DNA of 64,000 bases from assembly GCA_964016885.1 (NCBI GenBank), contig OZ024740.1, positions 307,768,001 through 307,832,000 on the forward strand, read 5' to 3'. This stretch comes from Eledone cirrhosa (Eukaryota). Position 1 is the first letter of the stretch. Each line of letters begins with the position of its first letter. This document shows, piece after piece, positions 3,900 to 62,558 of this stretch. The translations under genes were made by a program, and so were the position numbers. The notes beneath the pieces are model-generated. The model was not told where the DNA came from, ran no database searches, and was given only the letters and a program-made list of their open reading frames with translations.

Positions 3900-4620
3900 C
3901 TTTTTAGGGTTATGTCCAGGGCAACATTATCCAATTTCTCTTTTAAGATAGTAGGTCCAAATTTAAATGGCATTTGTTTACTATTACTAGCAGATCGAGC
4001 AACCATGCCCTTGACATCAACTCTAAGTTGATGTCAAGGGCATGGTTGCTTGCATGGTTTACTATGACCACAAATATGTGAACTAAAAAAAGCAGCAACT
4101 CTAGCTCTATGTAAAAATATTGGTCACTGGATAGAAAAGGGACTGAAGGTAATAAGGGAAGTTATAATTTGTGGCTGTCCACACTTTTGAGAAGTTTTGG
4201 TTGGCTGTCAGAGAGGTTGGCTTTCTTGGACACATGGAAATACATGATGCTGTGATAGATATTCATAACAGGTACCAGCTCAACATCACACTAAGGGAGA
4301 TAACAAGAACCTAATGATGACAGGTACCCAATTTTTTTTTTTTTGTATAGTAGTTGAAGGAGTATGGGACATAGATTTTCAGAGAAACTAACTTAACTTC
4401 AACCAATGAAGGATCCTATGAACCTCTATGTGGCTGCTCGACCAATAGTGACAGATAAATCTCCCGCAGATTATCACACCCTATCCTCTTAAAAAAGAAT
4501 GACTACATTGGGCAATGTAGTCCTAGATACAAAAACAAAACAAAAGAATGAAATAATCATGGCTGGAATTCTTTTACTGATAGGGTTGCTCAATCAGAGA
4601 TGAGCTGGGGCTAAACAACA
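3900..4620. repeat. Two oppositely oriented copies of an unclassified interspersed repeat (about 3900-4005 minus, 4425-4620 plus)
   Basis: tggttgctcgatctgctag..cctactatcttaaaa..attggataatg vs tggctgctcgacc..ccctatcctcttaaaa..attgggcaatg. Confidence 0.5.
3998..4050. repeat. Perfect 25-bp inverted repeat (3-nt loop)
   Basis: agcaaccatgcccttgacatcaact-cta-agttgatgtcaagggcatggttgct. Confidence 0.95.
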
Positions 4621-17613: not shown

Positions 17614-18163
17614 TGTAGTGACCTACATTCCGCGGGCTCACATACATTCTCTGTGCGTGATTTGGCTCAGTTCAGCCAATCAGCGCCAGTAGAAGAGGAT
17701 GTATCCCTACGCGCCCTGAGGAAGAAATTCCCCGCGAAGATTTGAAGAATCTCGCTCTGGTACCAGAAACTTCGAGCCAGCAACACGCATAATGTAGCAG
17801 TGAGATATTGCACCCCTAGCCTCGCCGGCTTAACGGCGCATTGGCACATTCCCTTTTGTAACCTCTTTTTATCTGTAACTTCAACCATATAAATAAACAA
17901 ACATTTCATCTCTAATTACTGCAGTTGAAGTCGTTATGTTACTCGTGTCTCAATGACATCTTTAATCCATGCTGCTGGAATTGGCGACCTGCCGAAAGGA
18001 ATATTGTAAATAGATGGTAAATAGATCGAGGGACCTTCCCTCACGTCTATGTCAACAAGATAATCCAATGAGGATACTATCACTTACCACACTGGCAACT
18101 AACGACCACTGATTCTACCACCCTGCTAAAGTGGCGATAACATCTATAACTAATACTGCTAAA
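17614..18163 (+). repeat. 5' LTR
   Basis: TGTAG...GCTAAA; AATAAA at about 17892; differs from the 3' LTR by 6 substitutions and one 3-nt indel. Confidence 0.95.
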
Positions 18164-18164
18164 G

Positions 18165-19750: not shown

Positions 19751-20303
19751 TGTAGTGACCTACATTCCGCGGGCTCACATACATTCTCTGTGCGTGATTT
19801 GGCTCAGTTCAGCCAATCAGCGCCAGTAGAAGAGGATGTATCCCTACGCGCCCCGAGGAAGAAATTCCCCGCGAAGATTTGAAGAATCTCGCTCTGGTAC
19901 CAGAAACTTCGAGCCAGCAAGACGCATAATGTAGCAGTGAGATATTGCACCCCTAGCCTCGCCGGCTTAACGGCGCATTGGCACATTCCCTTTTGTAACC
20001 TCTTTTTATCTGTAACTTCAACCATATAAATAAACAAACATTTTATCTCTAATTACTGCGGTTGAAGTCGTTGTTATGTTACTCGTGTCTCAATGACATC
20101 TTTAATCCATGCTGCTGGAATTGGCGACCTGCCGAAAGGAATATTGTAAATAGATGGTAAATAGATCGAGGGACCTTCCCTCACGTCTATGTCAACAAGA
20201 TAATCCAACGAGGATACTATCACTTACCACACTGGCAACTAACGACCACTGATTCTACCACCCTGCTAAAGTGGTGATAACATCTATAACTAATACTGCT
20301 AAA
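19751..20303 (+). repeat. 3' LTR
   Basis: Direct repeat of 17614-18163. Confidence 0.95.
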
Positions 20304-20439
20304 GAGCTGTACAAGCCAGAAACACGTTGGCAGCCATCCCCCGCTACTCCTGCCGGAATTCGCCAGATGGCGCTAGCTGTCAGCTTTTCAATATTCAGAA
20401 CAAGAATTCCAAATGTTTATCAGCAGCCACCAATGACAC

Positions 20440-21401: not shown

Positions 21402-22075
21402 TTTTCATAGCTTTAGGCTTCAGGTTGGGATATGGTATTACAATTACTCCTTTGTGTATGCTCCAAATGAATTTGTTGAGCAAATTGTAAACAACAAGAT
21501 TGAAATCACTGGGTATCGATCTAAACCTTTATTATAATTAACTCCCAAAATTTGCTCCATATTGGTGACATGATGCTGCTTTTAAGCATTAACACCAACT
21601 CCAGCCAGTCAGCCATTGTTGCTGTCACTTGATGACCGAATAGCAGTTAATACCACACGTGGGATACTGGTACTGACCTGAAAATTTAGTAGTAAGGTTG
21701 ATTTTCGGGAATCCTTTATAGGACTGCTGGTTGATGATAATTCCTTTGTCTGGAGCTTGTTGGTTATGGATTTATTATCAATCGATCACCAGCGAATTCT
21801 CCATGGAATTTGAAACAGTACTATACCAGCTTAGATGTAGATTTTTTAGAGTCTGGAGGATTTGTGTGTGCTAAACTAGGAGGATACTGGCTGTTTCAAT
21901 TTATGAAATTGTGAGTACTTTAACGTTTTTCATATGTTAAGCTGTCGATAGAATAATTACATTGTTTTCATTCCTTTAGTCTTCTGGCTGGGGTATTGTA
22001 TTACAATTACTCCTTTGCGTATACTCCAAATGAATTTGTTGAGCAAATTGTAAACAATAAGATCGAAATTACTGG
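21402..22075 (+). mobile_element. Non-coding, terminally redundant HHR-bearing unit A (retrozyme-like or PLE-derived)
   Basis: About 110-bp direct repeat at 21402-21512 and 21965-22075 (period 563) enclosing HHR relics. Confidence 0.65.
21726..21830 (+). ncRNA. Degenerate type I hammerhead with about 70-nt helix II
   Basis: gctgg-TTGATGA-t-aattcc..tggag..ttgttggt..accagcga..ctcca..ggaatt-t-GAAAC-AGTACT-ATA-ccagc; stem I gctgg/ccagc; near-palindromic stem III. Confidence 0.7.
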
Positions 22076-22203
22076 CCCTTGCCATTCTGAGTTCAAATCC
22101 TGCCGAGGTTAATTTTGCCTTTCATCCTTACGGGGTCGATAAAATAAAGTACCAGTAATACACTGGGTAATTGCTGGCCTTGTGCCAAAAGTAGAAACAA
22201 TTA
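22076..22203 (+). mobile_element. 5'-truncated tRNA-SINE
   Basis: B box gagttcaaatcc followed by the family body and tagaaacaatt tail. Confidence 0.85.
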
Positions 22204-22413
22204 TATATATAATCCTCATCATTGTTTAATGTCTATTTTCCATGCTAGCATATATATATATATATAGGGAAAAGAGTCGGGACCCTGATGGCAAATATAG
22301 CAGTATGAATACTGTTGGCTTAGTCCTGACTCCCATAAATATTGAGTACTCTGGTGCATTATGGTCCACCTGGTATCTTACCACACCTTCTTTGTATATA
22401 TACATATATATAT

Positions 22414-23160
22414 GAAATACTGTATATATTTTAATATAATGATTCTTTGGACTTACATTTTTATATATAGCTCTGATTAATAATTATTTAATTAATTCTT
22501 CTTTGAGCCACACCGTGAATGGTTGCCAAACACATATGTATCTGTGACTATGTCTAATTATATATATGTACCCTTTGAATTTAATATATACTCCCATAAG
22601 GTTGAGTAAAACTTTAGGCAGTATTCGGCTGCGCTTTCTAGCAACCAGCCTACTCGCCGACAGGCACCAATCACAAACTTTCTGCCTTGACCACTGGCTA
22701 CGTGATGGTTCTTAGCCATTTTGAATTCATTTCAGGCGGGGGATCATGGTAGAAGAAACTTAGTCCAGTCTGGGGTATCTCCTGATGAGTTCCGAGCCTC
22801 GTGGATTTATCCAAGACCGGGTATATCCAACAAGTGGAACAAAACCACCGGTTGGTAGGGACTATGAGAATTCTGGTAAAATTTATGTGCATTTTTTCTT
22901 CAAATTTCTATTTTGTACCTAATTCCATATAGTTAACTATTTGTCTAGTCAATTTCTACAGGCTAGAAGAAATAATTAAGTGTCATATGGCTGTACATCG
23001 CAGAAAAGAATCTGTATCATTTGTCTATTATTTCTTCATAAGTACATTTTAAACTTATAGCCTCGTTTAAATGATTTTTTATGTGGTTGATTTATGCTGA
23101 TTGGGAGAGGAAATACTGTATATATTTTATCTAATGTTTCTTTGGACTTACATTTTTATA
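22414..23160 (+). mobile_element. Non-coding, terminally redundant tandem-HHR unit B (retrozyme-like or PLE-derived)
   Basis: About 51-bp direct repeat gaaatactgtatatatttta..ctttggacttacatttttata at 22414-22465 and 23110-23160 (period 696); two HHR-like folds at 22691-22861; TA-rich flanks. Confidence 0.7.
22778..22861 (+). ncRNA. Type I hammerhead with long helix II and one core change (G12>A)
   Basis: tctc-CTGATGA-Gttcc..ggatttatcc..gggtatatcc..ggaaC-aAAA-CCA-ccggt-TGG-TA-ggga; all three stems pair. Confidence 0.78.
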
Positions 23161-48397: not shown

Positions 48398-48776
48398 GGA
48401 GGCACATGGCTTAGTAGTTAGAGCATTGGGCTTGCAATCGAAAGGTTGTGAGTTCAATTCTCAGACTAGGTGATGTGTTGTTTCCTTGAGCAAGACACTT
48501 TATTTCACATTGCTCCAGTTTACTCAGCTGTAGAAATGAGATGATAGGGACTGGGGTCCCTATCATTCCACTGCAAAGTGGTCGTGGAGGTGCCACGGCA
48601 AAAAAGTACCCAGCCCACACTGTAAAGTGGATGTGTAGGCGCCACGGAAAAAAAAGCACCCAGCACTCACTGTAAATGAGGTTGGTCTTAGGAAGGGCAT
48701 CCAGCTGTCGAAATCAAGCCAGAATCAGTTCCCGTCCCACCCTTGCAAGTGGACGTAAAATGATGATGATGATGAT
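48398..48776 (+). mobile_element. tRNA-derived CORE-like SINE (48398-48567) fused to an RTE-PHD 3' tail
   Basis: A box tggcttagtagtt, B box gagttcaattc, CORE-like tccttgagcaagacacttt; continues into ccactgcaaagtgg..aggaagggcatccagctg..gatgatgat. Confidence 0.85.
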
Positions 48777-62390: not shown

Positions 62391-62558
62391 GAAGGCGCAT
62401 GGCTTAGTGGTTAGAGCATTGGGCTGGCAATCGAAAGGCTGTGAGTTCAATTCTCGGACCGGGTGATGTGTTGTTTCCTTGAGCAAGACACTTTATTTCA
62501 CGTTGCTCCAGTTTACTCAGCTGTAGAAATGAGATGATAGGACTGGGGTCCATATCAT
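62391..62558 (+). mobile_element. tRNA-derived CORE-like SINE
   Basis: Near-identical to 48398-48567; A box tggcttagtggtt, B box gagttcaattc. Confidence 0.88.

What the first reader, a model, noticed from the sequence alone, without database searches (positions are those of the whole stretch)
21402..22075. Second unit with the same architecture but different sequence (element A)
Seen: period 563 nt with about 110 nt of terminal repeat. There is a clear HHR relic at 21726-21830 (stem I gctgg/ccagc, about 70-nt helix II with four paired segments, GAAAC-AGTACT-ATA suggesting ancestral ACAGTACTGT). A weaker upstream relic lies at about 21625-21695 (ttgatga..hairpin..gaaaattta). I see no nucleotide similarity to unit B, yet the layout matches: terminal repeat, weak HHR, long-helix-II HHR, terminal repeat. 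Inference: structure is conserved across families, which points to a shared replication mechanism. A loopless palindromic helix III implies dimeric cleavage.
Basis: partly seen in the sequence, partly recalled or inferred. Interest (0 to 1): 0.75.

Follow-up and report, generated by a model that had tools for sequence, protein, structure and literature searches.

The report
Fossil long-armed hammerhead retrozyme family
This is a worn, probably dead copy of a protein-free 585-base repeat found at about a hundred or more sites in an animal genome; it carries one hammerhead (self-cutting RNA) fold with an unusually long arm that was kept by compensating base changes, and it likely spread by borrowing the enzymes of Penelope-type jumping genes.

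Summary
The repeat and the main hammerhead are real. The second, 'weak' hammerhead and the LTR-like layout are not. Element A is a copy of an old dispersed 585-nt non-coding family (copies about 77% alike). Its 3' end is fixed (82 of 97 loci), often followed by TA-rich DNA, and its 5' ends are ragged. The '110-nt terminal repeat' is a partial tandem unit of variable length. Each unit has one type I hammerhead with a 74-nt helix II and a 10-nt palindromic helix III. Against a sister subfamily (about 70-75% alike) the core is unchanged and the stems covary; across the unit, 14 pairs are compensated (3.9 expected). This copy has three lesions in or beside the core. Nine of 77 5' ends fall near the cut site (2.4 expected), two exactly on it. 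This suggests cut RNA was sometimes the template, though RT stalling is a rival. No sequence homology to unit B was detected. The long-helix layout recurs in several unrelated families here. It is best read as a non-LTR retrozyme moved by Penelope-like elements; no specific partner was found. The scan reported oversized-hammerhead retrozymes before, on other DNA.

The parts
21402..21533 (+). Upstream partial unit (family positions about 452-584); pseudo-LTR-like 5'-truncated repeat of the unit's 3' part
21498..21521 (+). Predicted terminal hairpin just before the family's fixed 3' end; candidate RT start signal (inferred)
   Evidence: analogy to PMC11167929
21523..21546 (+). Unit junction: fixed 3'-end motif, then start of next unit; weakly like an internal motif of B-type families
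21531..22075 (+). Main unit (family positions 3-563), about 22-nt deletion near 21550, last ~22 nt missing
21600..21614 (+). 5' strand of predicted long-range stem pairing with about 21978-21991 and closing the domain that holds the ribozyme
21625..21714 (+). Claimed 'weak HHR' region: not a hammerhead; forms a different predicted hairpin (21661-21714) with GAAAA in its loop
21726..21830 (+). Type I hammerhead: stem I 21726-30/21826-30, core 21731-37, helix II 21738-21811, GAAA 21812-15, helix III 21815-24, predicted cut after 21825. This copy has C3>U, G10.1>U and G16.2>A
21841..21957 (+). Long predicted hairpin downstream of the ribozyme, partly compensated in subfamily A2
22076..22204 (.). 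Fragment of an extremely abundant unrelated repeat (SINE-like, label inferred) at which the right end of A stops
22414..23160 (+).

Best explanation
Element A is a decayed copy of a non-coding 585-nt repeat family with one long-armed type I hammerhead per unit, which likely spread as a non-autonomous passenger (non-LTR retrozyme) of Penelope-like retrotransposons by target-primed reverse transcription into TA-rich DNA. Shown: dispersed copies, fixed 3' end, ragged 5' ends, partial tandems, no ORF, invariant catalytic core and covarying stems between subfamilies, abundant GIY-YIG Penelope-like elements in the genome. Inferred steps: (1) tandem source loci were transcribed into longer-than-unit, highly folded RNA; (2) two hammerheads paired through the 10-nt palindrome and cut; (3) a Penelope RT/endonuclease nicked TA-rich DNA and began copying at one internal site, just after the terminal hairpin; (4) copying stopped at varied points, giving 5'-truncated, unit-length and 1.1-1.6x copies. 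About a tenth of copies likely came from cut RNA, since they stop at or just 3' of the cut site. Nearly half pass through the ribozyme, so they came from uncut or re-joined RNA. This copy would no longer cleave.
For: 42 places from 40 scored of 574 candidates. 99 exact matches of an 18-mer against 0 for the control. 3' end at model position 579-586 in 82 of 97 loci, with 5' ends spread; 9 of 97 run into an upstream partial unit. TA/TTA run within 30 nt of the end in 65 of 82, against 17% of random 30-mers (the element's own last bases may inflate this). Longest stop-free frame in subfamily majorities is 82 codons, with no codon periodicity; no Pfam hit for the 4 frames of A tested. Covariation A1 vs A2: 68 double-change cells vs 31.5+/-7.0, 0 of 500 shuffles. 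Pairs predicted from A1 alone and tested on A2: 14 compensated vs 3.9+/-2.0, 18 broken vs 43.6+/-5.6. 10595 GIY-YIG candidates; the loci read are C-terminal-endonuclease Penelope-like elements ending on (TA)n. 5' ends at 311-325: 9 of 77 vs 2.4, P=6e-4; L148 and L272 start on the first base after the cut site.
Against: No autonomous partner shares sequence with A. There was no credible profile hit in 30 GIY-YIG loci or 20 longer stretches. Only 4 of 186 A locus records (2 distinct places) had a Penelope protein hit, and neither was continuous with A. Within subfamily A1 alone covariation is not above control (5 cells vs 6.1). The 68 cells reflect about five events between two lineages. No long tandem array of A was seen; one near-complete dimer exists in A2 (L171). 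The 5'-end cluster weakens to P about 0.05 after scan correction, 3 of its 9 loci were in the sample where I first noticed it, and 7 of the 9 lie 6-10 nt past the cut site. Inverted 5' arms, common in B, are rare in A. Cleavage and expression were not tested.
Confidence: 0.82

Rival explanations
1. A is only the 3' end (pseudo-LTR) of a longer autonomous Penelope-like element, and the copies are its 5'-truncated remains.
For: Fixed 3' end, 5' truncation and TA-rich targets are also what truncated Penelope copies show. L115 has a long-helix hammerhead with the same palindrome after an A-rich, possibly coding stretch.
Against: Copies that pass the unit start continue into A's own 3' end (9 of 97). 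The 14 near-full copies share no adjacent upstream sequence. No Penelope ORF joins A. No RT-sized frame was found upstream of L115.
Confidence: 0.07
2. Spread went through a circular RNA copied round by the RT, with the hammerhead making the circle (the published retrozyme model), rather than through linear tandem transcripts.
For: Longer-than-unit but shorter-than-two-unit copies with no large arrays; the whole unit is strongly folded (z -2.6 to -6.6 against 12 coarse shuffles). Circles are shown for coral, mussel and axolotl retrozymes (PMC7229834 passages). In 2 of 9 partial tandems the repeats are closer to each other than to nearly all other copies.
Against: A circle has no end at the cut site, yet 5' ends gather there, including the upstream unit of L006. 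7 of 9 partial tandems show no clear excess self-identity. This route is compatible with the best explanation as a sub-route.
Confidence: 0.35
3. The 5'-end cluster reflects RT stalling at the base of the folded hammerhead domain, or TA microhomology, and not cut RNA. The ribozyme would then play no part in template formation.
For: 7 of 9 ends lie just 3' of stem I at a TA dinucleotide. In vitro, ribozyme mutants of an anole Penelope element insert normally (PMC11167929).
Against: The five other helix ends show no clear excess (15 vs 11.5, P=0.16). Two copies start exactly at the cut site.
Confidence: 0.35
4. A is a TRIM or LTR-type retrozyme with ~110-nt LTRs and two hammerheads.
For: Two 111-nt direct repeats bound the element in the window.
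Against: Repeat length varies from about 55 to 335 nt between copies and most copies lack it. The hammerhead is type I and internal. The second hammerhead fails all tests.
Confidence: 0.02

Closest known systems
Metazoan non-LTR retrozymes (Cervera and de la Pena 2020, PMC7229834, passages read; Li, Clavereau and Pollet 2026, 10.64898/2026.07.22.740005, parts 1-3 of 5 read)
   Same: Non-coding, low GC, type I hammerhead, no LTR, head-to-tail junction, co-occurs with Penelope-like elements; unit size within the 51-972 bp reported by Li et al.; short palindromic helix III.
   Different: Helix II is 74 nt against 4 bp (canonical) or 7-8 bp (minimal) in the texts read. Copies are dispersed, mostly truncated and shorter than two units, so they would fail Li et al.'s 'two intact HHR units' rule for active elements. 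Circular RNA not tested.
Penelope-like elements and their pseudo-LTR hammerheads (Cervera and de la Pena 2014, PMC4209133, parts 1-2 of 4; Frangieh et al. 2024, PMC11167929, parts 1-2 of 4; Craig et al. 2021, 10.1101/2021.04.23.441226, passages)
   Same: Partial-tandem pseudo-LTR, fixed internal start of reverse transcription, 5' truncation, AT-rich or (TA)n targets, type I hammerhead predicted to work as a dimer.
   Different: No RT/GIY-YIG ORF; no sequence link to the autonomous elements sampled; inverted arms rare. Naiads share the (TA)n target but lack hammerheads.
Plant LTR retrozymes (PMC4918200, search listing only; described in Li et al.)
   Same: Non-autonomous, hammerhead-bearing, flanking direct repeats in appearance.
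   Different: Those have type III hammerheads inside true LTRs with PBS/PPT and 4-bp TSD; A has a type I hammerhead in the interior and variable-length repeats.

Membership tests
Type I hammerhead ribozyme | Core CUGAnGA, GAAA, NUH around three helices with helix I open | tested here: met
   Family majority in all three subfamilies; 17 genome matches to an exact core-plus-palindrome pattern, 13 of them A1, control 0. The window copy itself has C3>U.
Type I hammerhead ribozyme | Covarying helices | tested here: met
   A1 vs A2; not detectable within A1
Type I hammerhead ribozyme | Match to an Rfam hammerhead model | tested here: not met
   No hammerhead family among 43 window hits at E<=5; probably due to the long helix II (inference)
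Type I hammerhead ribozyme | Self-cleavage activity | not testable with these tools
   Needs in vitro transcription
Type I hammerhead ribozyme | Loop 1-loop 2 tertiary contact | not tested
   Not examined
Non-LTR retrozyme | Non-coding unit with a type I HHR, no LTR/PBS/PPT | tested here: met
   PBS/PPT not searched explicitly
Non-LTR retrozyme | Tandem repeats with two or more HHR-bearing units | tested here: inconclusive
   Partial tandems in 9 of 97 A1 loci; one near-complete dimer in A2 (L171); no arrays seen
Non-LTR retrozyme | Expressed as linear and circular RNA | not testable with these tools
   No RNA holder listed
Penelope-like element (autonomous) | RT plus GIY-YIG ORF | tested here: not met
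Penelope-mobilised element | Fixed 3' end, 5' truncation, partial tandem, AT-rich target | tested here: met
Penelope-mobilised element | Sequence shared with an autonomous partner's pseudo-LTR | tested here: inconclusive
   None in 30 plus 20 sampled stretches out of 10595 GIY-YIG candidates
Penelope-mobilised element | Inverted 5' arm or 30-40 nt tail | tested here: inconclusive
   Only 1 clear inverted piece (L211) in 97 loci, and one end site dominates; common in B
LTR retrozyme / TRIM | Fixed-length LTRs holding a type III HHR | tested here: not met

The most novel reading that the evidence does not exclude
The genome records that hammerhead-cut linear RNA served as a real template for Penelope-driven insertion (5' ends piled at the cut site), and the 74-nt helix II, with the rest of the unit's fold, was kept under selection across subfamilies as the docking or timing element for the Penelope enzyme. 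That would give a role to Penelope-type hammerheads, which were dispensable in the one in vitro system read here.
Probability: 0.4. Interest if true: 0.6.

Novelty: new variant of a known kind. Interest (0 to 1): 0.36.

Why it matters
What hammerheads do in the Penelope life cycle is open: in vitro they were not needed for insertion and no reads ended at the cut site (PMC11167929). A family whose whole RNA fold covaries, and whose insertions partly begin at the cut site, offers a genomic test of that question. It also shows a hammerhead shape that Rfam misses. Against that, this copy and family are old fossils, the class is published, and the scan has noted similar oversized hammerheads on other DNA, so the gain is incremental.

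Tried and rejected
Rfam scan: no hammerhead hit. Upstream second hammerhead: rejected. Older upstream tandem copy: none. Coding or antisense-coding origin: no long frame, no Pfam hit, no periodicity. Homology of A to B: none by nhmmer in both directions or by covariance model. The junction motif alone scored 0 of 300 shuffles against one B-type unit (B3), but P 0.05-0.5 against the other three, with 11 targets tried; I treat it as a hint. Within-family covariation: null. Autonomous partner: not found; L115 looked like one but had no RT-sized frame upstream. Expression: no RNA holder listed, which is no evidence either way. DNA contigs of one sample (possibly the assembly's source) match the window through the ribozyme with no other letters; they reach only 23-24 letters past the 22075 junction, too few to count as bridging. 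The script picked the wrong GAAA for L115, so that row is ignored. The mixed alignment A2 held antisense hits and was not used for counts. L159-L161 were fetched but not analysed. Literature searches found no paper on cephalopod retrozymes or on a long helix II in them; the O. vulgaris repeat paper PMC13282606 has 0 mentions of hammerhead, ribozyme or retrozyme in its main text. Supplements of the Cervera and Li papers were not read and may show long-helix variants. Lunse et al. 2017 on dimeric Penelope hammerheads is recalled only.

Full report
Observation. The two 111-nt repeats (89%, period 563) are present. The hammerhead at 21726-21830 folds as claimed: z -2.5 in the window, -2.1 to -7.1 in four other copies, and a descriptor of equal strength appears in 0 of 200 shuffles. 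Rfam has no hammerhead hit anywhere in the window. The upstream 'weak hammerhead' fails. Its fold z is +0.4, +0.9 and -1.5, it is not recovered at 2 mismatches, its A6 column is A, C or U by subfamily while the true core is unchanged, and its GAAAA lies in the loop of another hairpin. There is no older tandem copy upstream.

Family. The window lies in a 3.0-Gb genome; an octopus-like animal is my guess from earlier scan notes and the repeat landscape, not tested. The unit has 574 candidates, 40 scored, at 70-88% identity to the window; mean pairwise identity is 77% with a star-like tree, so the family is old. The unit is about 585 nt. To avoid length bias I took all 99 exact matches of an 18-mer in the 3' part (control 0), which gave 97 loci after merging two same-insertion pairs. 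The 3' end is fixed in 82 of 97. Of the 97, 87 are single units (one with an internal deletion), 9 run into an upstream partial unit, and 1 rearranged locus was left out of the 5'-end count. The upstream partial units vary from about 55 to 335 nt, so the 'terminal repeat' is a pseudo-LTR made by partial tandem structure. In the window the right unit stops at position 563 against a fragment of a very abundant repeat. Flanks are TA-rich (65 of 82 vs 17%, possibly inflated by the element's own last bases). There is no coding signal.

Structure under selection. Within A1 the copies decay neutrally and show no covariation. A pattern search found a sister subfamily A2 (126 candidates), 71-75% alike at majority level, with the same length, junction and end. 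On a structure-blind alignment of 16 A1 and 16 A2 hammerheads, 68 cells show double changes against 31.5+/-7.0 (0 of 500; slid controls 17-43). These come from about five events: one in stem I, three in basal helix II, one in distal helix II. For the whole unit, pairs predicted from A1 only were compensated in A2 14 times (3.9 expected) and broken 18 times (43.6 expected) among about 155 pairs (the simulation ignores rate variation). So the whole RNA fold, not only the ribozyme, was kept while the family was active. Helix III is the same 10-nt palindrome in A1, A2 and two otherwise unrelated elements; it is unstable as a hairpin (+1.3) and stable as a self-duplex (-13.4), which predicts dimeric cutting. 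The window copy has C3>U, G10.1>U and G16.2>A (duplex -6.4) and is probably inactive (inference from established hammerhead chemistry).

Template. 5' ends: 10 of 87 fall at unit positions 3-18. Nine of the 77 beyond position 30 fall at 311-325, the cut being after 314 (2.4 expected, P=6e-4; about 0.05 after a scan correction). Six of the nine loci were new relative to the sample where I first saw the cluster. Two start on the first base after the cut; most others start 5-10 nt later at a TA that could pair with the target. Five other helix ends show no clear excess (15 vs 11.5, P=0.16). But 34 of 87 single units and all 9 partial tandems need uncut or re-joined RNA. Circle against linear precursor cannot be decided.

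Comparison with B and partners. I take B to be 22414-23160: 4454 candidates, best copies 88-94% alike, period 697, partial tandems, inverted 5' arms, one hammerhead with a 52-nt helix II. A and B show no homology by profile or covariance model, apart from a weak junction motif. Helix II of 49-95 nt occurs in several further unrelated elements met by chance, so the likeness of A and B is a general trait of this genome's retrozymes. Penelope-like elements are abundant and those read end on (TA)n, but none sampled shares sequence with A.

Known systems. Non-LTR retrozymes (PMC7229834, passages) and their proposed origin from Penelope pseudo-LTRs (10.64898/2026.07.22.740005, parts 1-3 of 5) fit. 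Penelope hammerheads with palindromic helix III and dimer action are in PMC4209133 (parts 1-2 of 4). Internal initiation of RT on AT-rich targets, and a ribozyme not needed in vitro, are in PMC11167929 (parts 1-2 of 4). (TA)n targeting and partial tandems are in Craig et al. (passages). My searches found no account of such a long helix II in animal retrozymes; supplements were not read. Earlier scan notes report the same kind on other DNA; none matched this sequence or place.

Verdict. A real, old, Penelope-type retrozyme with one oversized hammerhead: a new variant of a known kind, of moderate interest.

Noticed in passing
window 22414-23160: Unit B is a young, abundant family (4454 candidates) with inverted 5' arms; several inverted pieces stop near 22590, suggesting a second fixed end about 125 nt beyond the first. 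The window copy has G12>A in the core.
   Followed up: partly
L091:7268-8500; L107:1554-3006: Two diverged B-type subfamilies with different helix II sequence and an 8-nt palindromic helix III; good material for covariation of B.
   Followed up: partly
L101:6510-7420; L095 about 8005 and 8527 (minus); L097:104; L102 about 8089 (minus); L107:8218-10000: Further unrelated type I hammerhead repeats (periods about 459, 522 and 500; helix II 14-95 nt), several nested in the (TA)n tails of Penelope-like elements.
   Followed up: partly
L115/L116 1050-1960; L123 1130-1680: Two related elements with a long-helix hammerhead and the same ACAGTACTGT palindrome as A but otherwise unlike it; L115 and L116 are near-identical inverted duplicates about 330 kb apart.
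   Followed up: partly
A1b copies, window-equivalent 21732: 7 of 30 copies have C at core position 4 and G5 is often lost in that subfamily, which may mean a U4C core variant with CpG decay.
   Followed up: no
window 17614-18164 and 19751-20304: 554-nt direct repeats, 98% alike, 2137 nt apart: possible young LTR-type or non-autonomous element.
   Followed up: no
window 3998-4050: Near-perfect 53-nt inverted repeat (hairpin on both strands).
   Followed up: no
window 48406-48467 and 62400-62457: Weak tRNA-like Rfam hits, probably SINE heads.
   Followed up: no
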